Below, one piece after another: positions 13,772 through 35,160 of a stretch of 64,000 nucleotides of DNA. The stretch is from assembly GCA_048941625.1 (NCBI GenBank), contig JBHLNK010000004.1:1094-65093 (forward strand), read 5' to 3'. The notes below the pieces were generated by a model, which did no database searches, had not been told where the DNA came from, and was given only the letters and a program-made list of their open reading frames with translations. Position 1 is the first letter of the stretch. Each line of letters starts with the position of its first letter. Source of the stretch: Promethearchaeota archaeon (GTDB lineage: Archaea > Asgardarchaeota > Lokiarchaeia > Sigyniarchaeales > SOKP01). The position numbers and the translations under genes are program-made.

Positions 13772-14689
13772 ATGAAGTTTGGTTATTGTGTAAGAAGTCC
13801 TTCTACTCGTATATATTCTGAAATTAGAGACTTAACATTAAGAATTGAAAAGTTAAATTTTGATTCTATTCATGTTACCGACCATTTACTAGGTTTTGAT
13901 GAAACTCAAGAAAAAAAAGAAACGTTTTTAGAGTGTATGATACTATTGGGAGCGTTAGCAGTAGAAACAAATAAAATAAAATTGGGGCAAATTGTATTAT
14001 GCAACTCTTTTCGTAATCCTGCTTATTTAGCAAAAATGATATTGACTTTGGATCACATTTCTAATGGTCGAGTTTTAATGTGGTTAGGAGCAGGTTGGTA
14101 TGAGGAAGAATATAAGGCATATGGCTACGCATTTCCTTCTCCTAAAAGAAGAGTCGATGAGTTGGAGGAATCATTGACTATATATAAGAAGATATTTACG
14201 GAAGATGAAACTAACTTTGACGGAAGATTTTGGAAACTTGAAAAACATCGGAACTTTCCTAAGTCAGTACAGAAACCTTACCCACAATTAGTTATAGGGA
14301 CAAATGGTAAGAGGATGATTGACATTGCATGCCGAGAAGCAGATGGAATAAATTTGGCTTCATTGGAACTTTCGCAACAAAAAAAAAGAATGGAGAATAT
14401 TTCACTAATTAAAGAAAAACTAAGAAAGTACAACCGTGATCGTTCTAAGTTTGAGATCTCTCTTTTCACAGGTGTTACAATAGTCAGCATTCAAGAAACA
14501 GTTGAAAGGATAAGAAAAGAAAGGAATATTTTAAAATCTGATATGAAATATCAATTCATAGGAACTCCTGAAGAGATTAAAGAAAAAATAAAAGAAGCTG
14601 AAAATTTAGGTATCAATAAAATGGTTATAGTAATAGAAAGTCCTGATATTGAGGATCCTATTCACACTTTTTGTAGAGAAATAATGTGA
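13772..14689 (+). CDS. luciferase-like monooxygenase (LLM) family oxidoreductase, probably F420-dependent
   Basis: SIHVTDHL, LGAGWYEEEYKAYGYAFPSPKRRVDELEESL and FDGRFW are the typical LLM/F420-dependent oxidoreductase pattern. Confidence 0.65.
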   Translation: MKFGYCVRSPSTRIYSEIRDLTLRIEKLNFDSIHVTDHLLGFDETQEKKETFLECMILLGALAVETNKIKLGQIVLCNSFRNPAYLAKMILTLDHISNGRVLMWLGAGWYEEEYKAYGYAFPSPKRRVDELEESLTIYKKIFTEDETNFDGRFWKLEKHRNFPKSVQKPYPQLVIGTNGKRMIDIACREADGINLASLELSQQKKRMENISLIKEKLRKYNRDRSKFEISLFTGVTIVSIQETVERIRKERNILKSDMKYQFIGTPEEIKEKIKEAENLGINKMVIVIESPDIEDPIHTFCREIM

Positions 14690-21363: not shown

Positions 21364-22332
21364 TTGAAGATATTATTAACAGGTGCCTTTGGTAATGTTG
21401 GACAAAGTACCTTAGAGGAATTGATTAAGCGAAATTATGACATTAGAATTTTTGATATTAAAAATAAGAAAAACAAAAGATTAGCATATAAATATAAAAA
21501 ATTTGTAGAAATTTTTTGGGGAGATTTGAGAAATTTTAAAGAAGTTGAGATGGCAGTATCTGATAGGGATATTGTAATTCATGTAGCTGCGATTATTCCA
21601 CCATTAGCAGATAAGAAGCCTAAATTTGCTGAATCTGTGAATGTTGGAGGAACAAAGAATTTGGTAAAAGCTATGGAAAGTTTATCTAAAAAACCAAAAT
21701 TAATTTTTACATCATCTGTTGCCATCTATGGTGATCGTCTTGAAAATCCCTTAATCACACCAGAAGATACCCCGAATCCAAATCCAGATGATGAGTATGC
21801 TAAACAGAAACTAAAGTGTGAAAAAATAATAATGGAATCTTCTTTGGAATGGGCGATTTTTCGTCTAACATATATCATCTCCTTAAATAAATTACAAATG
21901 GATCCACTTATGTTTGAAATGCCACTTGATACTTGTATTGAAATTTGTGATACTAAAGATGTCGGTCTTGCTCTTACTAATGCCGTCGAAAATCAAGAAA
22001 TTTGGGGGAATATTTTGCATATAGCGGGAGGAAAACGATGTCGAATTTCATATCGAGAATATCTTAATCAAATGCTGGATATTTTTGGTGTTGGTTTTGA
22101 TCATTTACCAGAAGAAGCTTTTTCTAGAAATGGTTTTCATTGTGGTTTCATGACAACAGATAAAAGCCAGGGTCTTTTGAACTATCAGAGGTTTACTCTT
22201 GATGATTATTTTAATGCTGTAAGAAAAAAAGTTGCAGTATCAAGATTCTTTACTATGATGTTTAAACCTATAGCACAGAAATTCCTTTTAGGTAAATCTC
22301 ATTATTATAGATCTTATCTAGACAATAAATGA
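21364..22332 (+). CDS. NAD(P)-dependent epimerase/dehydratase (extended SDR)
   Basis: KILLTGAFGNVGQ Rossmann motif, SSVAIYG and YAKQK (YxxxK). Confidence 0.75.
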   Translation: MKILLTGAFGNVGQSTLEELIKRNYDIRIFDIKNKKNKRLAYKYKKFVEIFWGDLRNFKEVEMAVSDRDIVIHVAAIIPPLADKKPKFAESVNVGGTKNLVKAMESLSKKPKLIFTSSVAIYGDRLENPLITPEDTPNPNPDDEYAKQKLKCEKIIMESSLEWAIFRLTYIISLNKLQMDPLMFEMPLDTCIEICDTKDVGLALTNAVENQEIWGNILHIAGGKRCRISYREYLNQMLDIFGVGFDHLPEEAFSRNGFHCGFMTTDKSQGLLNYQRFTLDDYFNAVRKKVAVSRFFTMMFKPIAQKFLLGKSHYYRSYLDNK

Positions 22333-22614
22333 TCTAATAAAAACATTATTTTCAATATATTTTTAACTTTTTAGTTTAAATCTCTTTCTTTTATTGATTT
22401 TTCCTTCCTAAATATGATACAATTATTAAAAATCGTCTTTGAAATTAAAAATTCTCTGATATTTGACTTTAATTACAATTTTCAATTCAGAAATGTTTAG
22501 ATTTGATCACAAATCATTGATTAATTGACCGCTTCAGAAATAATTGATTATATCGATTAACAGAAAGTATTAAAAATATTGAAAATGAATAAATTTTAAA
22601 AAAGAATATTTAAA

Positions 22615-22638
22615 ATTGATCTTAACAAAAAGATCAAT
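22615..22638. promoter_or_regulatory. perfect 9-bp inverted repeat with 6-nt spacer, upstream of the Sec-hdrA operon
   Basis: ATTGATCTT-aacaaa-AAGATCAAT, ending 89 nt upstream of the ATG at 22727. Confidence 0.35.
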
Positions 22639-22680
22639 ATTGGAACTTAAAAAACATCCAATAACAATCTAAGAAATTTA

Positions 22681-22688
22681 TTTATATA
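22681..22688 (+). promoter_or_regulatory. candidate archaeal TATA box for the hdrA(Sec) operon
   Basis: TTTATATA lies 39-46 nt upstream of the ATG, with a GAGGTGG Shine-Dalgarno-like sequence at 22706-22712. In AT-rich DNA such matches are common. Confidence 0.25.
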
Positions 22689-22726
22689 CAATTATGTAAA
22701 ATGTAGAGGTGGATGTGTAAAAATAG

Positions 22727-24670
22727 ATGAGAAATCCTGAAAATCATCGGATTGGATACTATGCTTGTCAATGAGGTGTAAATATAAGAACTAAAGTAGA
22801 CTGTGATGAGTTAGTAGATTATGTGAGTAAAAACTTTGATGATGTTGTTATTGCTAAGAAAAATGCTTTCCTATGAACTGATAATGCTCAGAATGAAATA
22901 ATTGAAGATATAAAGGAGAAAAACTTAAACAGAATAGTGGCATCAGCTTGAACTCCACGTACACATGAAGTAATTTACCGAGGAACTATTGCTAAAACAG
23001 ATTTGAATCCATACTATTTTCAAATGGTAAATGTACGTGAACATTGTTCATGGTGTACAGATACTAAGGAAGAAGCTACAAAGAAAGCAAAATCTTTAGT
23101 GAAAAGTGGAATTGAAAGGGCTAAAAGACTTGAACCCGTCCCAATTAGAACGGTTCCAGTCACTAAAGCTACATTAGTTGTTGGTGGTGGGATAGGTGGG
23201 ATGAACGCAGCTCTCGATCTTGCAAATCAAGGTATCAAGGTATATTTAGTTGACCAAAAGACAACGATTGGAGGACGAATGTCTCAATTAGACCGAACAT
23301 TTCCTACCGACGATTGTGCAATATGAATTTGCGGACCTAAAATGTTGGAAGTCAATAGAAATGAGAACATTGAGTTAATAACTTATAGTGAAGTAAAGAA
23401 AATAGAGGGATTTGTTGGAAACTATAAAGTAACAATTCAAAAAAAACCACGATTTACTACAAAAGAATGTAATGGATGTGGAGCCTGTGCCGAAGTATGT
23501 CCTGTTTATATATCAAATTATTTCGATGAATACTTAGGTGCACGGAAAGCAATAGACATTCCATTTGGTCAAGCAGTACCATTTTTATATGATATCGATA
23601 GAAAAGCATGTATTGAGTGTTTTTCATGTGTAGATGCCTGTGAACTTGATGCGATTGATTTTAGTCAATTACCTACTGATATTGAAGTTGAAGTCGGTAC
23701 AATTATTATTGCAACTGGTTGGGATATATATGAACCCTTTGGAGAATATGGATATGGAGAATTTGAAAATGTCATAACACAAGTCCAATTAGAGAGAATA
23801 CTTGCACCTAATGGTCCACTTGAGGGGCATGTTCACAGAATATCAGATAATAAAAAACCTAAAGAAATTGTATTTATACAGTGTGTAGGAAGTCGAGAAA
23901 CTGAACGAACATATTGTAGTGGTGTCTGTTGTATGCTTGCTTTAAAAAATGGAAGGTTATTACTGGAAGAGTTTCCTGATGCGAATATAACAATATGTTA
24001 CATTGATATAAGAACTCCTGAAAAAGGATTTGAGGAGTATTATGAACGCGCAAAAGAAGCAGGGATAAAGATGATTCGGGGAAAAGTAGGTGAGATCTCT
24101 GAAGATCCTGAAACTAAGAATGTAAAAGTCAGAGTTTATTCATCTTTAACAGATAAAATTGTACTAATTGATGCCGATTTAGTAGTCTTATCTACAGCAG
24201 CACTTCCTTCAGCAGGAACTCAGCAAATTGTAGATGTTTTAAATCTTGATACTAATACATATGGATTTCTTACTGAATCGCATTTTGGTTTATTACCACA
24301 AGAAACAAAGTCAAAAGGTATTTTTATAGCTGGTTTTGCTCAAGGACCAAAGAATATTTCATATTCGGTCTCTCAAGCAAGAGCAGCTGCTAGTAAAGTA
24401 GCTGAATTAACAGCTCCAGGACAAATCGATATTGAATTGATTACTGCTGAAGTAAATAGTGAATTTTGTATTTCTTGTAGACGTTGTGAAAAGGAATGTC
24501 CAAAGAATGCAATAAGGATTGAAAAAGATATTGGAGCATTTATTGACGAAATAAATTGTGATGGCTGTGGAATTTGTGCAACCTGTTGTCCTACACAGGC
24601 AATCGATATCAGATATTATAGAGACCATCAATTATTTGCTGAAATTGATGGTTTATTAGGAGGTGATTAA
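22727..24670 (+). CDS. hdrA: heterodisulfide reductase subunit A of canonical size (647 codons), with four in-frame UGA codons read as selenocysteine
   Basis: One frame is continuous from ATG 22727 to TAA 24668-24670. The only interruptions are TGA at 22772, 22874, 22949 and 23324. Each aligns to a conserved Cys of the in-window paralogues: CHCG->CQUG, YTCSAD->FLUTDN, ASCTPRTHE->SAUTPRTHE, DCAICILAPK->DCAIUICGPK. The rest carries GGGIGG FAD motifs, four CxxCxxCxxxC ferredoxin motifs and CVGSR...YCSGVCC. Confidence 0.85.
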
Positions 24671-24676
24671 AGAGAC

Positions 24677-25138
24677 ATGGAAAATACCTTTAAAATAATT
24701 GTCTTTGCTTGTTTAAAATGAGGTTATAGTGCTGCTGATTTAGCAGGAGTTTCACGATTGAAATATACATCAGCAGTAAAAATAATCAAAGTGAAATGTA
24801 CTGGTAGAGTTGATCTTAAACATATACTTTATTGCATTCGTTCGGGAGCTGATGGTGTGATGATCGTAGGTTGACGTCCTAACGAATGTCAATTCAAAAA
24901 TGGTAATTTTACAGCAGATAGACATGTGGAATTAGCAAATAGAATTTTAGCATCGAGAGGTTTCGGAGATCAGAGAATAAATATGTATTGGTTAAGTGGA
25001 GCAGAGTCAGAAAAATTTGTAAAAAGTGTAGAAGATGCATTAGAAAAAGTAAAAAATTCTGGACCAAATCCGCTTAAATTAGTAAAAAAAGAAGCTAATG
25101 TCGAAAAAAAACTAGTCATAACTACCCCTGCAGAATGA
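24677..25138 (+). CDS. vhuD: MvhD/VhuD-type subunit (hydrogenase delta-subunit family) with two in-frame UGA codons read as selenocysteine
   Basis: ATG 24677 follows a GGAGGTGA Shine-Dalgarno-like sequence. TGA at 24719 and 24872 align to Cys of the MvhD paralogues: CCNWCSYAGADLAG->ACLKUGYSAADLAG and TGCHIGDCHY->VGURPNECQF. The frame ends at TGA 25136, and the next in-frame stop is TAA 25145-25147. Confidence 0.85.
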
Positions 25139-25184
25139 CTCTTATAATAAAATTATAGTTATAAGATGACTAACCTTGCAAGGG
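25126..25184 (+). promoter_or_regulatory. candidate SECIS element (AUGA_AA_GA, eukaryote-like kink-turn layout) overlapping the vhuD 3' end
   Basis: Hand fold. Helix I pairs 25126-25133 (CCCUGCAG) with 25176-25184 (UUGCAAGGG, A25180 bulged). The core is A25135-U-G-A25138 opposite U25167-G-A25169. Helix II pairs 25140-25147 with 25159-25166 (8 bp). The apical loop UAAAAUUAUAG has an A-run on its 5' side. Confidence 0.55.
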
Positions 25185-25254
25185 AAGGGGTTTTCAAATA
25201 GTATTCAATTTAAAATAAGAATTTTAGTAAAATTTAATCCAAAAGGATGGAAAT

Positions 25255-26781
25255 ATGGTTCAAATTTCAAATAATGTAAATTTCAATAGTATATCTCCAA
25301 AAAATTTAATGGATGCAACTTATCAGGCAGTTGAAAATTTTCAGATTAGAGCCTTTTTCGAAGCAAAAGAAGAAATTTTAAAAACTGGAAAGTATAACGA
25401 AGGTGAATTTTACGATATATTAGATGCTCTAATTAATGCAGAAACAGAACGGAAATTAATATTAGAATCATTAAAAGGTAAAAAACCATCATTTTTAGAG
25501 GAAATTGTTAAAATTGTAAAAGAATTTCCAATAGAAAATGTTATCCGTGATATTATTTATCTTAAAGAACAAGGTTTTGTTGAAGAACTTATTGAAATAA
25601 AAACTAAAACAATTATAAAGAAAATAAAAGGCGAAGAGAAAGAAGTTGAAGAAAAAGAATATTATTATAGATACCAAGTCAAAGATCTGCCTGATAACTT
25701 CGTAGAACATTTTTTTGAACCAGTTTCTATTGTGTTTGATTCTGAAGTCTGCTGTCAATGTGGTTGGTGTTCATCAATTTGCCCCGTCAACGCTATAACA
25801 GTTACAGCAGACACTTTGGAGATAGATGATGAAACTTGTATGAAATGCGGTTTATGTTTTTCAGTTTGTCCAAGATCATTTTCAATTGAACAAGCAGGTA
25901 AGACTATAAATAAGCTTGATAAAAATTTAAAATTCTCAGAAAAAATAAATGGTTATATCAATACTTATTCTGCGAGTACTACAAAGGATGATATTAAAAA
26001 AGTAAGACAAGATGGCGGGATAGTAACCTCCTTGCTTGAATACTTACTTAAAAATAAAATGGTTGATGCAATTGTAGCAGTAAAACATTCGAAGGATTTA
26101 TGGAAACCTGAACCAGTTATAGTAGAAGATGTAAAAGATTTATACAAGACAAGTGGTACAAAATACGCCAATGCCTCAACTTTAAGTATTTTAGATAAAA
26201 CAAAAAAGTATGAAAGTATTGCAGTGGTGGGCGTTCCTTGTATGATGAATGCTTTAGAGAAAGGTACAATGTTACCGAGTGGACTACCCTTTTTCAAAAA
26301 CATTAAGTATCGAATAGGGCTTTTTTGTATGGAATCTTTTCCTTATACTGGTGTTCTTAGCTTAATTAATGAAAAATTTCAAAAAGATTTTAATGAAATT
26401 AAAAAAATGGATATAAGTGGAGGTAAATTTATCATATACTTAGAATCAGGTGAAGATTTAAATGTACCTTTAAATGAAGTTAAATCCTATGCACGTCATA
26501 ATTGCCATTATTGTGAAGACTTAACTGCTGATTATGCAGATATTTCTGTAGGATCAATAGGGTCTCCCAGTGGTTGGTCTACTGTAATCACGCGAAATGA
26601 AAAAGGTGAAAAGCTTTACAACGGAGTGATTAAAGCAGGTTTGATCGAATCAAAAAGCTTAGATGAAGTTAAACCTGGACAACCTTTATTAGAGAGGATT
26701 GCAGGTAGTAAAAGGAAAAATTGTAAACCAATCGAATTAAAAAAAGAACAAGAAAGGAGTGGCAACCATAACTGTAACTAA
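25255..26781 (+). CDS. FrhB/FdhB-family iron-sulfur flavoprotein with a roughly 150-aa N-terminal extension (winged-helix-like) and 2x[4Fe-4S] motifs
   Basis: CCQCGWCSSICP and CMKCGLCFSVCP, then VRQDGGIVTSLL, VVGVPCMMNAL, GLFCMESF and CHYCEDLTADYADISVGSIG. Confidence 0.75.
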   Translation: MVQISNNVNFNSISPKNLMDATYQAVENFQIRAFFEAKEEILKTGKYNEGEFYDILDALINAETERKLILESLKGKKPSFLEEIVKIVKEFPIENVIRDIIYLKEQGFVEELIEIKTKTIIKKIKGEEKEVEEKEYYYRYQVKDLPDNFVEHFFEPVSIVFDSEVCCQCGWCSSICPVNAITVTADTLEIDDETCMKCGLCFSVCPRSFSIEQAGKTINKLDKNLKFSEKINGYINTYSASTTKDDIKKVRQDGGIVTSLLEYLLKNKMVDAIVAVKHSKDLWKPEPVIVEDVKDLYKTSGTKYANASTLSILDKTKKYESIAVVGVPCMMNALEKGTMLPSGLPFFKNIKYRIGLFCMESFPYTGVLSLINEKFQKDFNEIKKMDISGGKFIIYLESGEDLNVPLNEVKSYARHNCHYCEDLTADYADISVGSIGSPSGWSTVITRNEKGEKLYNGVIKAGLIESKSLDEVKPGQPLLERIAGSKRKNCKPIELKKEQERSGNHNCN

Positions 26782-28018
26782 AAAGTTAGATAAAATAAAA
26801 TCATATTCAGATGATAAATATGAATATTTGAAAAAAATATTTGACCCTAATTTAAATAACTTATTAAAAAAATGTTATCAATGTGCACGCTGCTCAGGTG
26901 TATGCCAAATCAGTAAAGTCCAGAAATTTACACCTAGTAGAATTATACAAACAATATTAGAAGGTTTTGAAGATGAAGTAATTAAAAGCAAGGTGTTATG
27001 GGACTGTTTAATGTGTAATAGTTGCTTGCAAAATTGCCCTAAAGATATCAATTTTGCTGATATTGTTAGGATTGCGAGATATAAAATGCGGATAAAAGAC
27101 ATTCAAAATCCTGATCGTTCTATCGCCCATAAAGGCATTTATCCTTTAATGTCAGAAATGATGTGTCAAGAAAATATAAAAATTGAAAGACCTCTTGATT
27201 GGATTCCAAAAGGTTGTAAAACTTCAGACAGAGGAAATATTTTATATTATGTAGGATGTTTACCATTTTTTAATTATGAATTTCAAGATTCAATTTCTAT
27301 AGCTGAAAGCACACTAAGAATTATTTGTAATTTAGAAAACGAATCTATAGTTGTCCTTAAAGATGAGATATGTTGTGGTCATGATTTATATTGGGGTCAA
27401 GCTAAATTCGAAAGTTTTATTGATTTAGCGAAAAAAAATGTTAATATGTTTGAAAAATCAGGTATTACCAAAATCGTTACTGCATGTGCGGAATGCTATA
27501 GAACTTTTAAAATTGATTATCCTAAATTATTTGAAGATTTTAAGGAGAAATTTGAAGTCAAACATATAATTGAATATATTTATGAGAAATGGAAAGAAGG
27601 AAAAGTTCAATTTAAGAATCCCGTTGAATTTAATGAGACTATTCCTTTTACTTATCACGATCCTTGTAGGCTCAGCAGATTTTTACCTAAAGATAATAAA
27701 ATAGTTGAAATTGTCAGAGAGATTTTCAAATATTTGAAAGTTATTGGTTACAGTTTTAAAGAAATGGAACATAGTAAAGGGAATTCCTATTGTTGTGGAG
27801 TAAATTCATGGATGAATTGTAATGAGCGATCTAAAGCTTTACGATACAAACGTCTTTTAGAAGCTAAAGCTGTTGGTACAAAAATGATTACATCATGCCC
27901 AAAATGCCGAATGCATTTAAAATGCATACAAAAGGATTATGAAGATTTTTCTTCTATTGAAATTTTAGATTTTTCAGAATTTATGGTAAATTTAATAGAA
28001 ATAAAAAAGCAAAATTAA
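26759..28018 (+). CDS. HdrC-HdrB fusion (HdrD-like) iron-sulfur protein with two CCG domains
   Basis: CYQCARCSGVC and CLMCNSCLQNCP (HdrC-like), then CCGHDLYWG, CAECY, DPCRLSR, CCGVNSW and SCPKC (HdrB-type CCG motifs). The GTG start overlaps the upstream gene by 23 nt. Confidence 0.8.
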   Translation: MATITVTKKLDKIKSYSDDKYEYLKKIFDPNLNNLLKKCYQCARCSGVCQISKVQKFTPSRIIQTILEGFEDEVIKSKVLWDCLMCNSCLQNCPKDINFADIVRIARYKMRIKDIQNPDRSIAHKGIYPLMSEMMCQENIKIERPLDWIPKGCKTSDRGNILYYVGCLPFFNYEFQDSISIAESTLRIICNLENESIVVLKDEICCGHDLYWGQAKFESFIDLAKKNVNMFEKSGITKIVTACAECYRTFKIDYPKLFEDFKEKFEVKHIIEYIYEKWKEGKVQFKNPVEFNETIPFTYHDPCRLSRFLPKDNKIVEIVREIFKYLKVIGYSFKEMEHSKGNSYCCGVNSWMNCNERSKALRYKRLLEAKAVGTKMITSCPKCRMHLKCIQKDYEDFSSIEILDFSEFMVNLIEIKKQN

Positions 28019-28034
28019 TGATTGAGGAGAGCAA

Positions 28035-31000
28035 ATGAAGAAAGTCGGTGCAGTTTTAGTGATTGGTGGTGGAATCGCAGGAATTCAGACTTCTATAGAT
28101 CTAGCAGATTCAGGTTATAAAGTATATCTTGCAGAATCCACAACCAGTATTGGAGGAGTTATGTCTCAATTAGATAAAACCTTCCCTACTAATGATTGTG
28201 CGATATGTATTCTTGCTCCTAAATTAGTACAGACTGGAAGACATGAAAATATTGAAATTTTAATAGGATCTTCAATCGAAAAAATCGAAGGAGCTCCAGG
28301 TAATTTTAAAGTTTATTTAACTCAAAAATCACTTCGCTTAGATCAAAACAAATGTACAGGGTGCGGTTTATGTGCTCAGCAATGTCCAATAGAAGCAATA
28401 GATTTTTTCAATGAGAAGCTTTCTAATAAGGCTGCAATATCTGTAAAATTTCCTCAAGCAGTTCCTTTAGTTTTTTCAATTAACGATAAAAAATGTATTG
28501 GTTGCGGTATTTGCAAAGGAATATGTAAAGCAAAGGCTATAGATTATGAACTCCAAGATAAGTTAGTTAACCTTAATGTGGGAGCTGTGGTTTTAGCAAT
28601 TGGATTTGACGAATATGATCCAACACCTTTAACGGAATTAGGCTACGGTAAAAATTTAAATGTTATTACAAGTATTGAATTTGAACGTATACTTAGTGCC
28701 AGTGGACCACACTCTGGTTTAATAATTCGCCCTTCTGATGGAATTATTCCAAAAAAAATTGCTTTTTTACAATGTATTGGTTCAAGAGACAGAAAACGTA
28801 GAATTGATTATTGTTCTTCAGTATGTTGTATGTATACTACAAAAGAAGCAGTAATCGCAAAAGAGCACATGAATATTATAGAACCGACAATCTTTACAAT
28901 GGATGTTAGAGCATATGGGAAGGATTTTGATAAGTATATTGAACGAGCTAAGGAGGAATATGGAGTTAGATATATAAGGCGTAGGATATCTTCAATTAAA
29001 GAGATACCGGATTCTAAAGATTTAAAGGTTAATTATGAAACAAAGAATGGAAAAATTATTGAAGAAATATTTAATCTTGTTGTTCTCTCTGTTGGAATGC
29101 GACCTAATCAAAAAGCTAAAGATATAGCACAAAAATTAAATATCGAGTTGAATGAATATGGATTTTGTAAAACTGAAACATTTACACCAGTAGAGACTTC
29201 AAGACCAGGGATTTATGTGTGTGGGGCTTTTGCAACACCGAAAGATATTCCAGAAACTGTTATTGAAGCAAGTGCTGCTGCTGGACGTGTAAATGTACTT
29301 TTATCAGAAGCAAGAAATATGCTTATTACAAAGAAAGAACTTCCCGAGGAAATAGATGTATCAGATCAACCACCACGAATCGGAGTGTTCATATGTCATT
29401 GTGGTATAAATATTGGAGGAGTTGTTGATGTTCCTTCTGTAGTTGAATATGTTAAAACTCTACCAAATGTAGTATACGCTGAACATAATTTGTATACTTG
29501 TTCGGCAGACACTCAAACAAATATCAAAGAAAAAATAGAAAAAAACCATCTCAATAGAGTTATTGTTGCCTCTTGTACTCCAAGGACACATGAATCTTTA
29601 TTTCAAGCAACTATTAGAGAAGTTGGTTTAAATAAATATCTTTTTGAAATGGTTAATATTCGTGATCAATGTTCCTGGGTTCATATGCATGAACCTGAAA
29701 AAGCAACTGCAAAATCCAAAGACTTATTACGTATGTCTGTAGCAAAGGCAAGCCAATTAATCCCGTTAAAAGAACAAGAAATTTCTGTAATAGATAAGGG
29801 TTTAATCATCGGTGGAGGTGTGGCTGGAATGTCAGCAGCGTTAAATCTGGCATCTCAAGGTTATGAAATTTTCTTAATTGAAAAGGAAGATTCTTTAGGG
29901 GGTTTTGCTAAAAATATTTACCAGACTCTTGAAAATGATGATGTTCAGAATTATCTTGAAACCTTAATTGAAAGAGTTAAAAATAATCAGTCAATCCATG
30001 TGTTTACAAACGCTGGTATTAATTCAATATCTGGATATATAGGGAATTTTTCTACAGATATAAATTACGGAAATACTAATAAAAATTTAAATCTAGAACA
30101 TGGTATAATCATTGTAGCTACTGGAGCAAAAGAATATCAACCCACGGAATATAATTTTGGGAAAGATAAAAGAATTATAACTCAGGCTGAATTTGAAAAG
30201 AATCTTTTTACCACAGAGAATGTAAAAGAATTGAAATCTATAGTGATGATTCAATGTATTGGTTCGAGAAATGAGGAACATCTTTATTGTAGTCGAATCT
30301 GTTGCTCAGAAGCTATTAAAAATGCCTTAAAGGCAAAAGAAATGAATCCTGATATTGAAATAATTATTCTGTACCGTGATATACGAACCTATGGATTTAA
30401 AGAAAAATTTTATAATTTAGCTAGAGATAAAGGTGTTATTTTCCTTAGATTTGAAGAATCTAAGCCTCCAGAATTAAAAATAAAAAATAAGCAGTTAAAA
30501 TTAATATCAAATAATCCAGATTTAGGAAATCTTGAAATAAATCCTGATTTAATTGTACTAAGTACAGGTCTCGAAGCACCAAAAAATGAAAATGAAGAAC
30601 TAGCAAAAATGTTAAAAGTCCCCCTTAATGAGGATAAATTCTTTTTGGAAGCTCATGTGAAATTGAGACCAATTGATTTTGCTACAGATGGTATATATTT
30701 ATGTGGAACGGCACATTCACCTAAAGATCTTAGAGAATCAATTGCACAAGCGAATGGCGCTGCTGCTCAAGCGGTTAAAATTTTAAGTGCTGAAAAACTT
30801 GTGACTTCTGGTCTTGTAGCAGTTGTAATAGAAGAAAATTGCATTGGGTGTGGAAGTTGTATGGAAGTGTGTCAATTTAATGCCATTGAATTAATAGAAG
30901 AAGAAAGAACTTTTGAAGATCTTACAATGATTATGAGAAAATCTCATGTAAACCCTGCACTCTGTAAAGGTTGCGGTACGTGTGGTGCTCAATGCCCTAA

Positions 31001-31076
31001 TTCAACAATAGTTATAAAGCATTTTGGTTTTGAGCAAATACACGCTATGATTTCTGCCCTATTAGTTCAAACTTAA
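28035..31076 (+). CDS. hdrA: giant fused HdrA-like flavoprotein (1013 aa): thioredoxin-reductase-like module + ferredoxin, HdrA N-terminal-type Cys domain, second FAD module, C-terminal ferredoxin
   Basis: VIGGGIAGIQ, DCAICILAPK, CTGCGLCAQQCP, CIGCGICKGIC, CIGSRD...YCSSVCC, ICHCGINIGG, YTCSAD, ASCTPRTHE, DQCSWVH, IIGGGVAGM, CIGCGSCMEVC and CKGCGTCGAQCP. Confidence 0.85.
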   Translation: MKKVGAVLVIGGGIAGIQTSIDLADSGYKVYLAESTTSIGGVMSQLDKTFPTNDCAICILAPKLVQTGRHENIEILIGSSIEKIEGAPGNFKVYLTQKSLRLDQNKCTGCGLCAQQCPIEAIDFFNEKLSNKAAISVKFPQAVPLVFSINDKKCIGCGICKGICKAKAIDYELQDKLVNLNVGAVVLAIGFDEYDPTPLTELGYGKNLNVITSIEFERILSASGPHSGLIIRPSDGIIPKKIAFLQCIGSRDRKRRIDYCSSVCCMYTTKEAVIAKEHMNIIEPTIFTMDVRAYGKDFDKYIERAKEEYGVRYIRRRISSIKEIPDSKDLKVNYETKNGKIIEEIFNLVVLSVGMRPNQKAKDIAQKLNIELNEYGFCKTETFTPVETSRPGIYVCGAFATPKDIPETVIEASAAAGRVNVLLSEARNMLITKKELPEEIDVSDQPPRIGVFICHCGINIGGVVDVPSVVEYVKTLPNVVYAEHNLYTCSADTQTNIKEKIEKNHLNRVIVASCTPRTHESLFQATIREVGLNKYLFEMVNIRDQCSWVHMHEPEKATAKSKDLLRMSVAKASQLIPLKEQEISVIDKGLIIGGGVAGMSAALNLASQGYEIFLIEKEDSLGGFAKNIYQTLENDDVQNYLETLIERVKNNQSIHVFTNAGINSISGYIGNFSTDINYGNTNKNLNLEHGIIIVATGAKEYQPTEYNFGKDKRIITQAEFEKNLFTTENVKELKSIVMIQCIGSRNEEHLYCSRICCSEAIKNALKAKEMNPDIEIIILYRDIRTYGFKEKFYNLARDKGVIFLRFEESKPPELKIKNKQLKLISNNPDLGNLEINPDLIVLSTGLEAPKNENEELAKMLKVPLNEDKFFLEAHVKLRPIDFATDGIYLCGTAHSPKDLRESIAQANGAAAQAVKILSAEKLVTSGLVAVVIEENCIGCGSCMEVCQFNAIELIEEERTFEDLTMIMRKSHVNPALCKGCGTCGAQCPNSTIVIKHFGFEQIHAMISALLVQT

Positions 31077-31094
31077 TTTAAAAGGTGAAAATTT

Positions 31095-31526
31095 ATGTCT
31101 AAATCAAAAAAGAAAATAAGCAAAAAGGAGTTTCACCCTAATATATTGTGTTTTTGTTGCAATTGGTGTAGTTATGCAGGAGCAGATTTAGCGGGAGTTT
31201 CCCGATTTCAATATCCCTCCACAATCAGAATTGTGCGAGTAATGTGTTCTGGTAGAGTAGATCCTGCCTTCATTCTAGAAGCATTTAAAGATGGTATCGA
31301 CGGAGTAATTGTAACAGGATGTCACATAGGTGACTGTCATTATTTGAAAGGAAATGAGTTTGCTAGAGACAGGTTTGAAAATTTTCATAAAATTTTACAT
31401 ATTTTTAACCTTGATAAGAGATTTAGACTTGAATGGGTTAGTGCATCTGAAGGAAAACGATTTGCTGAAGTCATTGCAGAATTCACAAATCAAATTAAAG
31501 AACTGGGTCCACTAAGACCGAATTAG
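31095..31526 (+). CDS. mvhD: MvhD-type subunit (methyl-viologen-reducing hydrogenase delta subunit family), all-Cys version
   Basis: ILCFCCNWCSYAGADLAGVSRFQYP, RVMCSGRVDP and TGCHIGDCHY. Confidence 0.85.
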   Translation: MSKSKKKISKKEFHPNILCFCCNWCSYAGADLAGVSRFQYPSTIRIVRVMCSGRVDPAFILEAFKDGIDGVIVTGCHIGDCHYLKGNEFARDRFENFHKILHIFNLDKRFRLEWVSASEGKRFAEVIAEFTNQIKELGPLRPN

Positions 31527-31545
31527 AAATAATTTTTACATGAAT

Positions 31546-31559
31546 CAGCTGCTTTTTTT
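31546..31559 (+). terminator. possible operon terminator (palindrome plus T7 run)
   Basis: CAGCTG then C then TTTTTTT, starting 20 nt after the mvhD stop. Oligo-T tracts are the usual archaeal termination signal. Confidence 0.35.
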
Positions 31560-31996
31560 CCTTAAATTGTAAAAATCTCAATATTTATATTTTTTTTATT
31601 AAGTAATAATTCTAATTTAATTTATCCACTATAATGTCATTTTTTTTTCCATTCTTTGCATAAATTTAATGATGTTTGATCGATATTGTTATATTTCAAT
31701 TTAAAATTGCTAGAAATATATCACTAAAAAAGAAATTATTACTAATATCCAATATAATGTAATTTATTGATAATCATAAAAAATTACATTTATCATATTC
31801 TTCATCTCAAATGAGAAAAATGTTTCAATCAGTATATAAAATCCAAAAATACTAACAAAAACGAACAAAAAGCCCAAAAAAGCTAATAATAATATAATAT
31901 TATGACTGATTACGAAAAACTGACTCTAATAAAAGTTTGGGACTGATCACAACCAAAGCAAAAAGTGTCGGATTCTGATCATTTTTCATAAAAATA

Positions 31997-32004
31997 TTTA
32001 TATA
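31997..32004 (+). promoter_or_regulatory. candidate TATA box for the second hdrA cluster
   Basis: TTTATATA (the same octamer as at 22681) lies 73-80 nt upstream of ATG 32077. Weak evidence in AT-rich DNA. Confidence 0.2.
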
Positions 32005-32076
32005 ATTACATATCTTTATTTTTTAATCAACTAAGTTTTTGAGTAAATTATTCAATAACAATTTAAAATGGGTTAA

Positions 32077-35000
32077 ATGATGGAAGGATTTGTTTTGGTT
32101 ATTGGTGGTGGAATTGCTGGGATACAAGCTTCTTTAGATTTAACAGATTTAGGATTTAAAGTATATTTAGTAGAAAAAACACCTTCAATTGGGGGAAGAA
32201 TGGCGCAGTTAGATAAAACATTCCCCACTAATGATTGTAGTTTATGTATTCTTGCTCCAAAAATGGTTGAGGTGTTTAGAAATCCTAATATTGAATTAAT
32301 GACTTATCATGAGGTTAAAAAAGTATCTGGTAAGAAAGGAAATTTTATGGTTACAGTTCTTAAGAACCCTCGTTATATTGATGAAAAAAAATGTAAGGGA
32401 TGTGGTGATTGTGCTGCGAGATGTCCTAAGATTGAATTTCCTAACATATTTGATATGAATTTGGGTAAAAGAAAATCAGTTTACATTCCGTTTCCTCAAG
32501 CTGTTCCGCCTGTATACTTAATTGATTCAAATTTATGTTTAAAGCTAACCAAAGGAGTATGTGGGGTTTGTGAAAAAGTTTGTAAGGCAGAAGCGATAAA
32601 TTTTGAACAAAAACCTAAAGAAATTAATATTAATGTTGGTGCAATTGTAGTTGCTACTGGTTTTGATACTTTAGGAGAAGAATTAACTTCAAGATGGGGT
32701 TATAGATTTGATAATGTAGTAAGTGCTCTTGAATATGAACGGATTTTATCCGCATCAGGACCATTTGAAGGTCATATTTTACGACCTAGTGATAGAAAAG
32801 AGCCAGAAAAGATCGCATTTATTCAATGTGCAGGATCTAGGGATTTACGTGAAGGAATCCCTTATTGTTCCTCAGTATGTTGTATGTATACTGCGAAAGA
32901 AGCAATTATAACAAAAGAACATTCAGAAAACTCAAAGTGTTTTGTATTTCGGCATGACGTAAGAGCATATGGGAAAAATTTTTTTGAATACACTCAGAGA
33001 GCTCAAGAGGAATATGGAGTAATATATTTCCAAACTAAAATTAGCAGAATAATTGAAGATCCGGAAACAAATGATTTAGTGATACATTATGAAGATCTAA
33101 AAACGGGCGAATTTAAGGATTTTAAGGCAAATTTAGTAGTATTAGCAGCCCCTCTTGTACCTTCAGCTGGAACTATAGAACTAGCAAAGATTTTAGGAAT
33201 CAAATTAGATGAATATAATTTCTTTAAAGAGAAATCATATTTTGATAAAGCTTTATCTTCAAAGGAAGGTATTTTTTTAGCTGGTTTCTGTCAAGGTCCA
33301 ATGGATATACCCGAAACAGTAGCTGATTCAAGTGGTGTGGCTTCTCAAGTTGCAAGTTTACTTAGCAACTATAAGTTTACTGAAACAAAAGAAAAAGCTA
33401 TAAGAATACCAGAAAAGGAGGTAAAGCAATCAGATGAAGCAAGAATAGGCGTTCTCATATGTCATTGTGGAATTAATATTGGTAAATATATAGACATTCC
33501 TAAGGTTATTGAACAGATAAAAAAATTGCCAAATGTTGTATTTTGTGAAGATAATTTGTACTCCTGTAGTTCTGATTCACAAGAAAGAATTAAAGAAGTA
33601 ATATCGGAATATAATTTAAATAGATTTATTGTGGCTTCTTGTACACCGCGTACGCATGAACAATTATTCCAAGAAACCTGTCAAGAAGCAGGTTTAAATA
33701 AATATTTATTTGAAATGGTGAACATCAGAGACCAATGCTCATGGGTACATATGACAGAGAAGGAGCTTGCTACGGAAAAAGCAATTGATTTAATCAGAAT
33801 GGGGATAGCAAAATCAAGATTATTAAAATCGCAAGAAGAAAAAACATTGAAAATCACACAGACTGCGATGATAATTGGAGGAGGTATATCCGGAATGACA
33901 GCAGCATTGAATATAGCTAGTCAAGGATTTAAAGTGTATCTAATAGAAAAAGAGCAAAATTTAGGTGGAAATTTAAAATACTTAAATATGCTATTTCCTA
34001 CTCAAGAGGATGCTTCAATCTTGCTAAATGAAACAATAGAACAAGTAATAAATAATAATAACATTCAAATCTTTTTAAAATCTAATATAAAAGAAATTAA
34101 AGGGTATATTGGGAATTATGACGCTTCAATCATCGATTCAGAAAAGGTTAGCCATGAATTGAAAATTGGAACTATAATTGTTGCCACAGGTGGAAAAGAA
34201 TTAAAGCCTAATGAATTTTTTAATTATACATACACAAATCATAATGTGATTACGCAGCTACAATTAGAACAGAAACTAAAAGATGAAGATCAATCGTGGC
34301 TGGACAAACTTAATCATATAACGACACTTCTATGTGTTAACGCTAGACAAGAAAATGGGATTACCTATTGTTCGAACATTTGTTGTGAAACAGCGATAAA
34401 AAATATAAATATCCTAAAGGAAATAAAACATGATCTCAAGTTGATAGTTCTTTATAGAGATCTTCAGATGGCAAAAAAAGAATTTGAAAGATATTATCGT
34501 GAACGAAGAAAAGACGCCGTTTTCTTGAGATACGACTTAGATCACCCTCCTATCATTACAGAATCAAATGGAGAAAAAGAAAAATTTGAAATTGATGTAT
34601 TTGATACCAATCTTCAGGAAAATATTAACTTCAACACAGACTTAATAGTACTCTCAACACCAATGGTTCCAGCAGACAATTTGAATGAATTAGCACAAAA
34701 ACTTAAAGTTCCTCTAGATAAAAATGGATTCTTTTTAGAAGCTCATGTAAAATTACGACCATTAGATTTTGCGACAGATGGAATCTTCCTATGTGGATGT
34801 GCTCATTGGCCAAAAAATGTTCAAGATTCCATATCACAAGCAAATGGCGCTGCGGGTAGAGCATGCAGATTTTTAAGTGCTGGGGAGATTACAACATCTG
34901 GATTAATAGCAGAGGTAGATCCAGAGATTTGCATAGGATGTGGGACATGTGAGGAAGCTTGTTCATATAATGCAATAGAAATTACAAACTTTGTAAAAGA

Positions 35001-35160
35001 TTTTGAAGAAGTAAGTCTACCGATTAAAAAATCTACAATAAATTCGGGATTATGTAAAGGTTGTGGTACTTGTGCTGTTAATTGTCCAGTTGGGGCAATT
35101 TCTATAAAACATTATGATTTTGAGCAAATTAATGCAATGATTAAGACACTTGCTCTATAA
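32077..35160 (+). CDS. hdrA: giant fused HdrA-like flavoprotein (1027 aa). The start may be the second ATG at 32080.
   Basis: Same motif order as 28035-31076: VIGGGIAGIQ, DCSLCILAPK, CHCGINIGK, YSCSSD, ASCTPRTHE, DQCSWVH, IIGGGISGM, CIGCGTCEEAC and CKGCGTCAVNCP. A close paralogue of 36592-39696. Confidence 0.85.
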   Translation: MMEGFVLVIGGGIAGIQASLDLTDLGFKVYLVEKTPSIGGRMAQLDKTFPTNDCSLCILAPKMVEVFRNPNIELMTYHEVKKVSGKKGNFMVTVLKNPRYIDEKKCKGCGDCAARCPKIEFPNIFDMNLGKRKSVYIPFPQAVPPVYLIDSNLCLKLTKGVCGVCEKVCKAEAINFEQKPKEININVGAIVVATGFDTLGEELTSRWGYRFDNVVSALEYERILSASGPFEGHILRPSDRKEPEKIAFIQCAGSRDLREGIPYCSSVCCMYTAKEAIITKEHSENSKCFVFRHDVRAYGKNFFEYTQRAQEEYGVIYFQTKISRIIEDPETNDLVIHYEDLKTGEFKDFKANLVVLAAPLVPSAGTIELAKILGIKLDEYNFFKEKSYFDKALSSKEGIFLAGFCQGPMDIPETVADSSGVASQVASLLSNYKFTETKEKAIRIPEKEVKQSDEARIGVLICHCGINIGKYIDIPKVIEQIKKLPNVVFCEDNLYSCSSDSQERIKEVISEYNLNRFIVASCTPRTHEQLFQETCQEAGLNKYLFEMVNIRDQCSWVHMTEKELATEKAIDLIRMGIAKSRLLKSQEEKTLKITQTAMIIGGGISGMTAALNIASQGFKVYLIEKEQNLGGNLKYLNMLFPTQEDASILLNETIEQVINNNNIQIFLKSNIKEIKGYIGNYDASIIDSEKVSHELKIGTIIVATGGKELKPNEFFNYTYTNHNVITQLQLEQKLKDEDQSWLDKLNHITTLLCVNARQENGITYCSNICCETAIKNINILKEIKHDLKLIVLYRDLQMAKKEFERYYRERRKDAVFLRYDLDHPPIITESNGEKEKFEIDVFDTNLQENINFNTDLIVLSTPMVPADNLNELAQKLKVPLDKNGFFLEAHVKLRPLDFATDGIFLCGCAHWPKNVQDSISQANGAAGRACRFLSAGEITTSGLIAEVDPEICIGCGTCEEACSYNAIEITNFVKDFEEVSLPIKKSTINSGLCKGCGTCAVNCPVGAISIKHYDFEQINAMIKTLAL

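What the first reader, a model, noticed from the sequence alone, without database searches (positions are those of the whole stretch)
22727..24670. HdrA gene with four in-frame UGA codons, each at a conserved cysteine: a multi-selenocysteine HdrA that the ORF track splits into fragments
Manual translation from ATG 22727 gives one uninterrupted frame to TAA 24670, broken only by TGA at 22772, 22874, 22949 and 23324 (codons 16, 50, 75 and 200). There are no TAA/TAG stops and no frame changes. Each TGA aligns to an invariant Cys in the three Cys-type HdrA paralogues in this window: ICHCGINIGG vs ACQUGVNIR, YTCSAD vs FLUTDN, ASCTPRTHE vs SAUTPRTHE, and DCAICILAPK vs DCAIUICGPK. HdrA is a known selenoprotein in Methanococcales, where a single Sec has been reported. 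Multi-Sec HdrA has, to my knowledge, been reported for Lokiarchaeota. Four Sec residues in one Fe-S flavoprotein is rare. A gene caller would either miss the first 92 codons or call a pseudogene.
Basis: partly seen in the sequence, partly recalled or inferred. Interest (0 to 1): 0.85.

Follow-up and report, generated by a model that had tools for sequence, protein, structure and literature searches.

The report
Four-selenocysteine HdrA gene in a Lokiarchaeon
This is a real, intact gene for the electron-bifurcating enzyme subunit HdrA in which four UGA "stop" codons are read as selenocysteine; with the two-UGA gene next to it, it is served by one downstream RNA signal, an arrangement already described for Lokiarchaeota in 2016, so it is a good but not new example.

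Summary
ATG 22727 to TAA 24670 is one frame of 647 codons, interrupted only by TGA at codons 16, 50, 75 and 200.

- The protein matches solved HdrA structures end to end.
- In 80 orthologous loci from Promethearchaeota (Asgard) genomes, the TGAs at codons 16, 75 and 200 are always kept.
- Codon 50 alternates between TGA (57 sequences, window included) and TGT/TGC (22 loci).
- The stretches between the TGAs evolve like coding sequence.
- TGA is an ordinary stop elsewhere in the window.

The next gene, vhuD/mvhD (24677-25138), has two more in-frame TGAs. Its own TGA stop lies inside the AUGA core of a eukaryote-like SECIS element (25124-25191). This is the only such element in the window, and exactly one is found after vhuD in each of the 75 related loci that reach that far.

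This six-UGA, one-SECIS hdrA-vhuD operon was described for Lokiarchaeota by Mariotti et al. 2016 and catalogued across Asgard archaea in 2024. It is therefore a new member of a known kind. The public record of this genome gives neither gene a protein entry.

Read against later HdrA structures, all four Sec sites map to the mobile shuttle [4Fe-4S] cluster and the CxxC pair beside the FAD.

The parts
22681..22688 (+). TATA-like box TTTATATA, candidate archaeal promoter of the hdrA-vhuD unit
   Evidence: Read from the sequence. An 'aTAtacA' block is conserved at this place in the alignment of 64 orthologous upstream regions. Function is inferred.
22706..22713 (+). Shine-Dalgarno-like GAGGTGGA ahead of hdrA
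   Evidence: GAGGTG is at least 90% conserved in 64 orthologous upstream regions.
22727..24670 (+). hdrA coding sequence: 647 codons including four UGA (Sec), then a TAA stop
   Evidence: phmmer against the PDB gives HdrA 9sfi_A at E 4.5e-199 over residues 7-645, plus 5odc_A and 8rvu_a. Pfam finds an FAD/Rossmann domain and two ferredoxin domains.
22772..22774 (+). UGA codon 16 (ACQ-U-GVN); Cys in all solved HdrA
   Evidence: TGA in 79/79 orthologues with this column. Aligns to the second Cys of CxC in 9sfi, 5odc and 8rvu and in the paralogues.
22874..22876 (+). UGA codon 50 (FL-U-TD)
   Evidence: TGA in 57 sequences (window included), TGT in 17 and TGC in 5 loci, a Sec/Cys interchange. Cys in solved HdrA.
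22949..22951 (+). UGA codon 75 (SA-U-TPRTHE)
   Evidence: TGA in 79/79 orthologues. Cys in solved HdrA and in the paralogues.
23324..23326 (+). UGA codon 200 (DCAI-U-ICGPK), the canonical HdrA Sec site (Cys197 / Sec197 / Cys205 in other numberings)
   Evidence: TGA in 81/81 sequences. The column is X (Sec) in 9sfi_A and Cys in 5odc_A and 8rvu_a. Aligns to DCAICILAPK of paralogue 28035.
24659..24667 (+). Shine-Dalgarno GGAGGTGAT for vhuD, inside the last codons of hdrA
   Evidence: Read from the sequence. Synonymous diversity drops in the last ~15-20 codons of hdrA.
24677..25138 (+). vhuD/mvhD coding sequence: 153 codons with two UGA (Sec), then a UGA stop at 25136
   Evidence: Pfam FlpD E 3e-41. 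PDB 9sfi_K E 5.8e-37. Present 2-22 nt after (most often 3-8 nt), or overlapping, the end of hdrA in all 79 loci with sequence there.
24719..24721 (+). UGA codon 15 of vhuD (CLK-U-GYS)
   Evidence: The same column is X (Sec) in M. maripaludis VhuD 9sfi_K and Cys16 in M. marburgensis MvhD 9sw2_D. U in all orthologues.
24872..24874 (+). UGA codon 66 of vhuD (VG-U-RPNEC)
   Evidence: The same column is X (Sec) in 9sfi_K. U in all orthologues that reach it.
25131..25173 (+). lokiSECIS core: AUGA 25135-25138 (its UGA is the vhuD stop), helix II 25139-25147/25159-25167, 11-nt apical loop UAAAAUUAUAG, GA 25168-25169
   Evidence: Model R2, built from 75 other loci without the window, scores it 64.3 bits, E 3.3e-11, and it is the only hit in 64 kb at E<=1. 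9 of 9 stem pairs change on both sides. MFE -7.2 kcal/mol.
25124..25191 (+). Extended SECIS: lower helix 25124-25129 / 25186-25191, enclosing the core and a 3-bp mini-hairpin 25174-25176 / 25182-25184
   Evidence: On an ungapped 76-sequence alignment the lower helix is 81% paired with 5 of 6 pairs changed on both sides, and the mini-hairpin is 92% paired with one covarying pair. The single-sequence MFE shows the same three helices.

Best explanation
hdrA (22727-24670) and vhuD (24677-25138) form one transcription unit of a Lokiarchaeon. It carries six internal UGA codons, four in hdrA and two in vhuD, that are decoded as selenocysteine. Decoding is directed by a single kink-turn-type SECIS (lokiSECIS) at the very 3' end of vhuD (25124-25191). 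By inference from the described archaeal system, the SECIS recruits the Sec-specific elongation factor with Sec-tRNA(Sec), which then serves UGA codons 263 to 2363 nt upstream, across the cistron boundary.

The UGA at 25136 lies inside the AUGA core and is too close to be recoded, so it terminates vhuD. hdrA ends on UAA, so it is not read through.

The product is a canonical ~650-aa HdrA, the flavin-based electron-bifurcating subunit, together with its partner iron-sulfur subunit VhuD/MvhD. Selenium replaces sulfur at the conserved Cys positions of the N-terminal (mobile-arm) domain and at the CxxC pair next to the FAD.

Shown here: the frame, the UGA positions, their conservation and Cys equivalence, the coding constraint, the SECIS and its covariation, and its uniqueness per locus. 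Inferred: actual Sec insertion, bicistronic translation, and the chemistry of the Sec sites.
For: - Frame and UGA positions.
- Full-length HdrA and VhuD identity, with Sec (X) in the M. maripaludis structures at the columns of hdrA codon 200 and vhuD codons 15 and 66.
- 80 orthologous loci from different Promethearchaeota species: TGA kept at codons 16, 75 and 200 in every locus with the column, and codon 50 is TGA in 57 sequences (window included), TGT in 17 and TGC in 5.
- Differences per site at codon positions 1/2/3 are 0.155/0.095/0.489 for codons 1-199 and 0.151/0.066/0.463 for codons 201-647, so the part upstream of the last TGA is translated.
- hdrA stops are TAA (65) or TAG (15), and lengths stay at 637-661 aa.
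- Both vhuD UGAs are in all orthologues.
- SECIS: one hit per locus in 75/75 loci that reach the vhuD 3' end, always on the same strand just after vhuD. The leave-one-out model hits the window at 64.3 bits and nothing else. Covariation is shown.
- TGA is a normal stop in 8 of 50 long ORFs of the window, always at the ORF's 3' end.
- The arrangement matches point by point what Mariotti et al. 2016 describe for Lokiarchaeota (PMC4989117) and Huang et al. 2024 for Asgard archaea (PMC11227280).
Against: - No tRNA(Sec), EFSec/SelB, PSTK, SepSecS or SelD is encoded in the 64-kb window, so the presence of the machinery in this genome rests on the literature for the lineage.
- No experimental evidence of selenium incorporation exists for any Asgard protein as far as the papers read here show.
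- How one SECIS can serve a UGA at codon 16 of an upstream cistron, 2.36 kb away, is not understood.
- The first pair of helix II is a C-U mismatch in the window.
Confidence: 0.9

Rival explanations
1. The gene is a pseudogene, or the TGAs are sequencing or assembly errors: four nonsense changes in a decaying hdrA copy made redundant by the three Cys-type paralogues nearby.
For: The public record of the contig gives the gene no protein entry. Three HdrA-like paralogues lie within 15 kb.
Against: The same TGAs are present in 79-81 of 81 independent assemblies of different species. There are no frameshifts or TAA/TAG. The third-position-biased divergence equals that of the rest of the gene. The paralogues are a different, two-module architecture at only 34-37% identity.
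Confidence: 0.01
2. UGA is read here as a standard amino acid rather than Sec, for example Cys by near-cognate or dedicated decoding, or Trp/Gly as in genetic codes 4 or 25. This could be genome-wide or context-dependent, with no selenium involved.
For: No Sec machinery is visible in the window. Cys would be chemically acceptable at all six sites, and codon 50 is Cys in 22 orthologues.
Against: TGA ends 8 of 50 long ORFs, and no other credible gene has an internal TGA. All six UGAs sit at Cys columns, three of them at sites where M. maripaludis has Sec in solved structures. A conserved, covarying SECIS accompanies every locus. The lineage has the full Sec machinery according to PMC4989117 and PMC11227280.
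Confidence: 0.05
3. Each UGA is recoded by its own local signal, such as a bacterial-type hairpin just downstream, a euryarchaeal GAA_A-type SECIS, or a 5'-UTR SECIS, and not by the distant element after vhuD.
For: The distance of up to 2.36 kb and the cistron boundary are unusual. Codons 1-16 show strongly reduced synonymous diversity (0.29-0.44 against a gene mean of 0.745).
Against: Synonymous diversity after UGA 50, 75 and 200 is 0.77-0.83, with no local constraint. RNAalifold finds no structure around the start and UGA16. No GAA_A-type stem-loop occurs in 22333-25254. There is no second lokiSECIS in the window or in any of the 75 loci. Rfam finds nothing.
Confidence: 0.04

Closest known systems
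HdrA-VhuD selenoprotein gene pairs of Lokiarchaeota with a shared lokiSECIS (Mariotti et al. 2016, PMC4989117; catalogued for Asgard archaea by Huang et al. 2024, PMC11227280)
   Same: - hdrA directly upstream of vhuD on one strand, with a very short spacer (6 nt here).
- Up to four Sec in HdrA, always including the site near 200, and two Sec in VhuD, giving six UGAs over ~2 kb.
- hdrA ends on UAA/UAG.
- A single SECIS after vhuD with AUGA, a 9-bp stem, an 11-nt A-rich loop ending in G, and GA.
- The UGA stop can be part of AUGA.
   Different: Nothing in kind. This copy is from another genome, a Promethearchaeota MAG with a 71.9-kb contig, at most 93% identical to the closest species representative. 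It has no protein record. In this orthologue set I also see a covarying lower helix and a nested mini-hairpin, which the main text of the 2016 paper does not describe.
HdrA and VhuD of Methanococcales (M. maripaludis structures 9sfi_A and 9sfi_K; PMC13518236)
   Same: Same protein families over their full length. Sec at the same columns as hdrA codon 200 and vhuD codons 15 and 66. hdrA-vhuD synteny is shared.
   Different: Methanococcales HdrA has one Sec, whereas this one has three more in the N-terminal domain. Their SECIS is the euryarchaeal type, and according to the discussion in the 2016 paper hdrA had its own. The host here is not a methanogen.
Cys-type HdrA of M. thermolithotrophicus / M. 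wolfeii (5odc) and M. marburgensis (8rvu, 9sw2)
   Same: Same domain order. The same four N-domain Cys columns and the same CxxC pair next to the FAD.
   Different: All these positions are Cys, and no recoding is needed.
Eukaryotic selenoprotein P (multi-Sec, 3'-UTR SECIS)
   Same: Several UGA codons are recoded by kink-turn SECIS elements located far downstream in the 3' region (as discussed in PMC4989117).
   Different: SelP uses two SECIS elements, SBP2 and a monocistronic mRNA. Here one element would serve two cistrons, and no SBP2 is known in the lineage.

Membership tests
HdrA (canonical ~650-aa heterodisulfide reductase subunit A) | Full-length sequence similarity to experimentally solved HdrA | tested here: met
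   9sfi_A E 4.5e-199 (query 7-645), 5odc_A 1.1e-192, 8rvu_a 1.3e-189, 7bkb_A 1.2e-158.
HdrA (canonical ~650-aa heterodisulfide reductase subunit A) | FAD-binding thioredoxin-reductase-like domain plus an inserted and a C-terminal 2x[4Fe-4S] ferredoxin domain | tested here: met
   Pyr_redox_2/NAD_binding_8 at 149-237, Fer4_10/Fer4_8 at 241-306, Fer4/Fer4_21 at 574-627. All CX2CX2CX3C Cys are invariant in 81 sequences, apart from 4 loci with Sec at one of them.
HdrA (canonical ~650-aa heterodisulfide reductase subunit A) | N-terminal domain with four conserved Cys, and the CxxC pair (Cys194/197 in 5odc numbering) | tested here: met
   columns 14, 16, 50, 75 and 197/200 are Cys in all three printed structures. 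Here they are C, U, U, U and C/U.
HdrA (canonical ~650-aa heterodisulfide reductase subunit A) | Works with HdrBC to reduce CoM-S-S-CoB | tested here: inconclusive
   No hdrB/hdrC pair is adjacent. CCG-domain (HdrD-like) proteins lie at 26759-28018 and 35312-36592, and an FrhB-like protein at 25255-26781. The substrate in a non-methanogen is unknown.
Selenoprotein gene (UGA = Sec) | In-frame UGA at a position that is Cys (or Sec) in homologues | tested here: met
Selenoprotein gene (UGA = Sec) | UGA conserved, or exchanged only with Cys codons, in orthologues with the frame intact around it | tested here: met
   79/79, 57+22, 79/79 and 81/81. Coding-type divergence on both sides.
Selenoprotein gene (UGA = Sec) | SECIS element on the same transcript | tested here: met
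   That hdrA and vhuD share one mRNA is inferred from the 6-nt spacer and the absence of any other SECIS.
Selenoprotein gene (UGA = Sec) | tRNA(Sec), EFSec/SelB, PSTK, SepSecS and SelD in the same genome | not testable with these tools
   None in the window. The rest of the genome is not available. The machinery is present in the lineage according to PMC4989117 and PMC11227280.
Selenoprotein gene (UGA = Sec) | Selenium shown in the protein | not testable with these tools
   Needs 75Se labelling or mass spectrometry.
lokiSECIS (Mariotti et al. 2016) | AUGA immediately 5' of the stem and GA immediately 3' of it | tested here: met
   AUGA at 25135-25138 and GA at 25168-25169. Both are invariant in 58 aligned elements.
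lokiSECIS (Mariotti et al. 2016) | 9-bp stem and 11-nt apical loop, with A-rich first loop positions and G at the last loop position | tested here: met
   Stem CUCUUAUAA/UUAUAAGAU has 8 standard pairs plus a C-U at the base. The loop is UAAAAUUAUAG. The criteria are quoted.
lokiSECIS (Mariotti et al. 2016) | Located at the end of the selenoprotein gene, with only one per hdrA-vhuD pair, after vhuD | tested here: met
   One hit in the window and one per locus in 75 loci.
lokiSECIS (Mariotti et al. 2016) | Predicted folding energy below -5 kcal/mol | tested here: met
   -7.2 kcal/mol for 25125-25180 and -15.6 for the extended 25115-25197. Single-sequence z-scores are weak (-2.0, -0.7), so the support comes from covariation.
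VhuD/MvhD | FlpD-family ~150-aa protein with two Sec sites about 50 codons apart | tested here: met
   Pfam PF02662 E 3e-41. 153 aa with U15 and U66, at the same columns as X in 9sfi_K.

The most novel reading that the evidence does not exclude
The four Sec of this HdrA may not be 'multiple catalytic residues' outside the cluster ligands, as proposed in 2016 before any structure existed. They may instead converge on one redox node.

- U16, U50 and U75 are three of the only four Cys columns shared by the N-terminal domains of the solved HdrAs. That domain holds the mobile 'shuttle' [4Fe-4S] cluster (HA3/A3).
- U200 is the Cys197/Cys205 residue. It ligates that cluster from the partner protomer in the crystal form (PMC9012536) and forms a Se-S or ligand-binding pair beside the FAD in cryo-EM (PMC13518236, PMC13580544).
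- VhuD U15 equals MvhD Cys16 of the same proposed relay.

If three N-domain Cys plus Cys197' are the ligands, at least three of the four ligands of this cluster would be selenolates. That would be a naturally Se-ligated [4Fe-4S] cluster on the low-potential branch of electron bifurcation. Orthologues with a fifth Sec inside classical CX2CX2CX3C motifs suggest that this family can place Sec at a position that ligates an Fe-S cluster in Cys-type homologues.
Probability: 0.5. Interest if true: 0.6.

Novelty: new member of a known kind. Interest (0 to 1): 0.3.

Why it matters

This locus still has three uses:
1. It is a clean example that current annotation still drops. Neither gene has a protein record, so metabolic reconstructions of this genome would lack its only canonical single-module (~650-aa) HdrA and one MvhD.
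2. The 80-species comparison gives quantitative support for the 2016 model: conservation of each UGA, a Sec/Cys toggle at one site, one SECIS per operon, and no local recoding signals.
3. Placing the Sec sites on post-2017 HdrA structures points to a selenium-ligated shuttle cluster and a CxxU relay. This bears on the currently open question of how electrons pass between the MvhD cluster, the Cys pair and the bifurcating flavin.

Tried and rejected
- Exact-sequence look-ups of the 442-aa fragment and of the neighbouring FrhB-like protein in the contig index found nothing. Cluster look-up then identified the source. A look-up with 'U' in the sequence is not accepted.
- Rfam, at gathering and at permissive thresholds, has no family that matches the SECIS. 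The weak SNORD123 and isrD hits are chance level.
- I thought the HdrA N-terminal domain might be a paralogue of VhuD with Sec at homologous positions. BLASTP (E >= 4.9) and hhalign on the orthologue profiles (probability 1.4%) give no support, so I dropped the idea.
- My first paralogue alignment suggested that codon 200 has no Cys counterpart in the in-window paralogues. That was an artefact of aligning only to their C-terminal module; the motif is in their N-terminal module.
- Local recoding signals: there is no synonymous constraint after UGA 50, 75 and 200, no consensus structure around UGA16, and no GAA_A-type SECIS.
- The bacterial sigma-70 and terminator scan is not informative for an archaeon.
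- Sec machinery was searched for among the window's ORFs and not found.
- The ADH gene at 43760 looked like a possible further UGA-containing gene. The UGAs lie upstream of a likely non-canonical start, so it is not a selenoprotein candidate.
- The original structure paper (Science 2017) is not held, so ligand assignments rest on secondary descriptions.
Full report
**1. The observation**

Translating 22727-24672 on the + strand gives one uninterrupted frame of 647 sense positions ending at TAA 24668-24670. The only internal stops are TGA at 22772, 22874, 22949 and 23324, which are codons 16, 50, 75 and 200. An in-frame TAG at 22724 immediately precedes the ATG, so 22727 is the first possible start. 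The mechanical ORF list breaks the gene into 23003-23326 and 23342-24670.

**2. What the protein is**

With Cys written at the four TGAs, the protein matches solved HdrA subunits from end to end: 9sfi_A at E 4.5e-199 over residues 7-645, 5odc_A at 1.1e-192 and 8rvu_a at 1.3e-189. Pfam finds the FAD/Rossmann domain and the inserted and C-terminal ferredoxin domains.

In the printed alignments, columns 14, 16, 50 and 75 are the only N-terminal-domain Cys shared by all three structures. Column 200 is Cys in 5odc and 8rvu, and X, the deposited selenocysteine, in the M. maripaludis chain 9sfi_A.

Sites 16, 50 and 75 align to the C-terminal module of the 1013-1034-aa proteins at 28035, 32077 and 36592. 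Site 200 aligns to DCAICILAPK/DCSLCILAPK in their N-terminal module. These paralogues are two-module HdrA fusions, not simple Cys-type copies.

**3. Is UGA generally a stop here?**

Yes. Of 50 long ORFs in the window, 34 end on TAA, 8 on TAG and 8 on TGA. When TGA is read through, those eight run on for only 0-33 codons. No other credible gene has an internal TGA; the other cases are antisense shadows or lie upstream of the start.

**4. The second half of the unit**

Six bases after the hdrA stop, a GGAGGTGAT ribosome-binding site leads into a 153-codon gene, 24677-25138, of the FlpD/MvhD family (Pfam E 3e-41). It has in-frame TGAs at 24719 and 24872 (codons 15 and 66) and a TGA stop at 25136. 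Both internal sites are X (Sec) in M. maripaludis VhuD 9sfi_K. Codon 15 is Cys16 of M. marburgensis MvhD.

**5. Comparative evidence**

A scan of one genome per species returned 80 loci, all from Promethearchaeota or other Asgard MAGs, at 74-93% amino-acid identity.

| hdrA codon | TGA | Cys codon |
|---|---|---|
| 16 | 79 of 79 | none |
| 50 | 57 | TGT 17, TGC 5 |
| 75 | 79 of 79 | none |
| 200 | 81 of 81 | none |

These counts are; the window sequence is included in them.

- The four-Sec pattern of the window is the majority state (53 of 81). Twenty-two sequences have three Sec and four have five.
- Differences per site at codon positions 1, 2 and 3 are 0.155/0.095/0.489 in codons 1-199 and 0.151/0.066/0.463 in codons 201-647. 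The region before the last TGA is therefore under the same protein-coding constraint as the rest.
- hdrA always ends on TAA or TAG, with lengths of 637-661 aa.
- vhuD follows in every locus and keeps both UGAs.

This excludes pseudogenes and sequencing errors.

**6. The SECIS**

By eye, and then by pattern search, the 3' end of vhuD carries AUGA (25135-25138, its UGA being the vhuD stop). This is followed by a 9-position stem, an 11-nt loop UAAAAUUAUAG, the return strand and GA.

- A covariance model built from 58 such elements finds exactly one hit in each of the 75 loci whose contig reaches the vhuD 3' end. The hit is always just after vhuD on the coding strand. The 75 include 12 loci that the pattern search had missed.
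- A second model, built from those 75 without the window, scores 25131-25173 at 64.3 bits (E 3.3e-11). It finds nothing else in the 64 kb at E<=1.
- All nine stem pairs show changes on both sides, and slid controls fall from 95% to 41-58% paired. The caveat is that this alignment is fitted to the model.
- On an independent ungapped MAFFT alignment of 76 wider segments, the stem is 95% paired.
- On that same alignment two further helices appear. One is a lower helix, 25124-25129 with 25186-25191, 81% paired with 5 of 6 pairs changed on both sides. The other is a 3-bp mini-hairpin, 25174-25176 with 25182-25184, 92% paired with one covarying pair.
- The 5' strand of the lower helix is the last codons of vhuD (ACT ACC CCT GCA GAA TGA). 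This may explain the conserved TTP[AV]E C-terminus seen.

**7. No other recoding signal**

- Synonymous diversity after UGA 50, 75 and 200 is 0.77-0.83, against a gene mean of 0.745.
- There is no GAA_A-type stem-loop anywhere in 22333-25254.
- Rfam finds nothing.
- One observation remains unexplained. Codons 1-16 have very low synonymous diversity (0.29-0.44), and the string CATCGGATTGGATACTATGCTTGTCAATGAGG is at least 90% conserved, yet RNAalifold predicts no structure.

**8. Source and annotation**

Neighbouring proteins are exact matches to NCBI entries from a 'Promethearchaeota archaeon' MAG contig of 71.9 kb. MFX1388700.1 is 21364-22332 and MFX1388701.1 is 25255-26781. Neither hdrA nor vhuD therefore received a protein accession.

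**9. What is known**

Mariotti et al. 2016 (PMC4989117) reported the following for Lokiarchaeota:
- HdrA with up to four Sec at five possible positions, always including the one near 200.
- VhuD with two Sec.
- hdrA always directly upstream of vhuD.
- A single lokiSECIS after vhuD (AUGA, 9-bp stem, 11-nt A-rich loop ending in G, GA) that would serve up to six UGAs over ~2 kb.
- hdrA always ending on UAA/UAG.
- UGA stops that can be part of AUGA.

Huang et al. 2024 (PMC11227280) catalogued 1439 Asgard selenoproteins with the same hdrA-frhD/vhuD arrangement. Every feature of the window's locus matches. It is a new member of a known kind, not a new kind.

**10. Mechanism and function**

- **Shown:** the items in sections 1-7.
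- **Inferred from the described archaeal Sec system:** the SECIS recruits EFSec carrying Sec-tRNA(Sec), and this complex decodes the six UGAs on a bicistronic mRNA. The terminal UGA, inside the SECIS core, terminates translation.
- **Not testable here:** no tRNA or Sec-machinery gene lies in the window, so their presence in this genome could not be checked.
- **Function:** HdrA is the flavin-based electron-bifurcating subunit. It sits at the head of a 17-kb cluster, 22727-40141, which also holds an FrhB-like protein, two CCG-domain (HdrD-like) proteins, three HdrA fusions and two more MvhD genes. The substrate in this non-methanogen is unknown.

**11. A structural re-reading (inference)**

The 2016 paper, written before any HdrA structure, stated that the Sec sites are not cluster ligands and suggested multiple catalytic residues. 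Later work changes the picture:
- The N-terminal domain binds a [4Fe-4S] cluster through N-domain Cys plus Cys197 of the partner protomer (PMC9012536).
- That cluster is the mobile 'shuttle' HA3/A3 of the low-potential branch (PMC13580544; PMC13518236).
- The Cys202/Cys205 pair (C197/U200 here) and MvhD Cys16 (VhuD U15 here) lie between the MvhD [2Fe-2S] cluster and the FAD, with an unresolved role. In M. maripaludis this includes a possible Se-S bond at Sec197.

Only four N-domain Cys columns are shared by the solved HdrAs, and three of them are Sec here. At least two N-domain ligands of the shuttle cluster, plus the trans ligand, would therefore be selenolates.

**12. Verdict**

The true unit is the hdrA-vhuD-SECIS operon, 22727-25191. 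Novelty is low because the arrangement is published. Interest is moderate to low, with some added value from the comparative statistics, the extended SECIS architecture and the structural mapping.

Noticed in passing
window 25124-25191: The SECIS is larger than the published core. A covarying lower helix (ACCCCU/AGGGGU) overlaps the last vhuD codons (TTPAE-stop). A small 3-bp hairpin with a UGCAA-type loop is nested between the core and the 3' strand of that helix. The conserved VhuD C-terminus may be an RNA constraint rather than a protein constraint.
   Followed up: yes
window 22727-22777 (hdrA codons 1-17): Synonymous diversity is far below the gene average (0.29-0.44 against 0.745). A 32-nt string that includes a rare CGG codon and UGA16 is at least 90% conserved across orthologues, yet no consensus structure is predicted. 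This could be an ordinary start-region constraint or an element that helps decode the very early UGA.
   Followed up: partly
L012, L022, L051, L058 (hdrA orthologues): Four species have five Sec in one HdrA. The fifth is inside a classical ferredoxin motif: CVECFSUVDAC at column 301 in three loci, and CDGUGIC at column 614 in one. That is one more Sec than the 'up to four' reported in 2016, and it places Sec at a bona fide [4Fe-4S] ligand position.
   Followed up: partly
window 28035-31076, 32077-35160, 36592-39696: The three large 'FAD-dependent oxidoreductase' genes are fusions of two HdrA modules with complementary features. The N-terminal module has the DCxxC pair but no N-domain. The C-terminal module has the CHCG...C...CTPRTHE N-domain but lacks the pair. 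This resembles the complementary HdrA fusions described in PMC9012536, but in the opposite order. The first and third are each followed by an all-Cys MvhD (31095-31526, 39701-40141).
   Followed up: partly
window 21364-26781: In the public record, protein accessions jump from MFX1388700.1 (21364-22332) to MFX1388701.1 (25255-26781). Both selenoprotein genes therefore lack a protein entry.
   Followed up: yes
window 43577-43800: The zinc-ADH gene listed from TTG 43760 is probably longer. Pfam ADH_N already starts at residue 2, the frame is open back to TGA 43667, and GGGGATGAT is followed by ATT AAA GCT GCT GTT. This suggests a non-canonical ATT start at 43679. It is not a selenoprotein.
   Followed up: partly
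window 10035-11525 (-) and 13772-14689 (+): A second FrhB/FpoF-like protein and an F420-dependent LLM-class oxidoreductase lie upstream. Together with the FrhB-like gene at 25255-26781, this hints at F420-linked electron input to the Hdr cluster.
   Followed up: no
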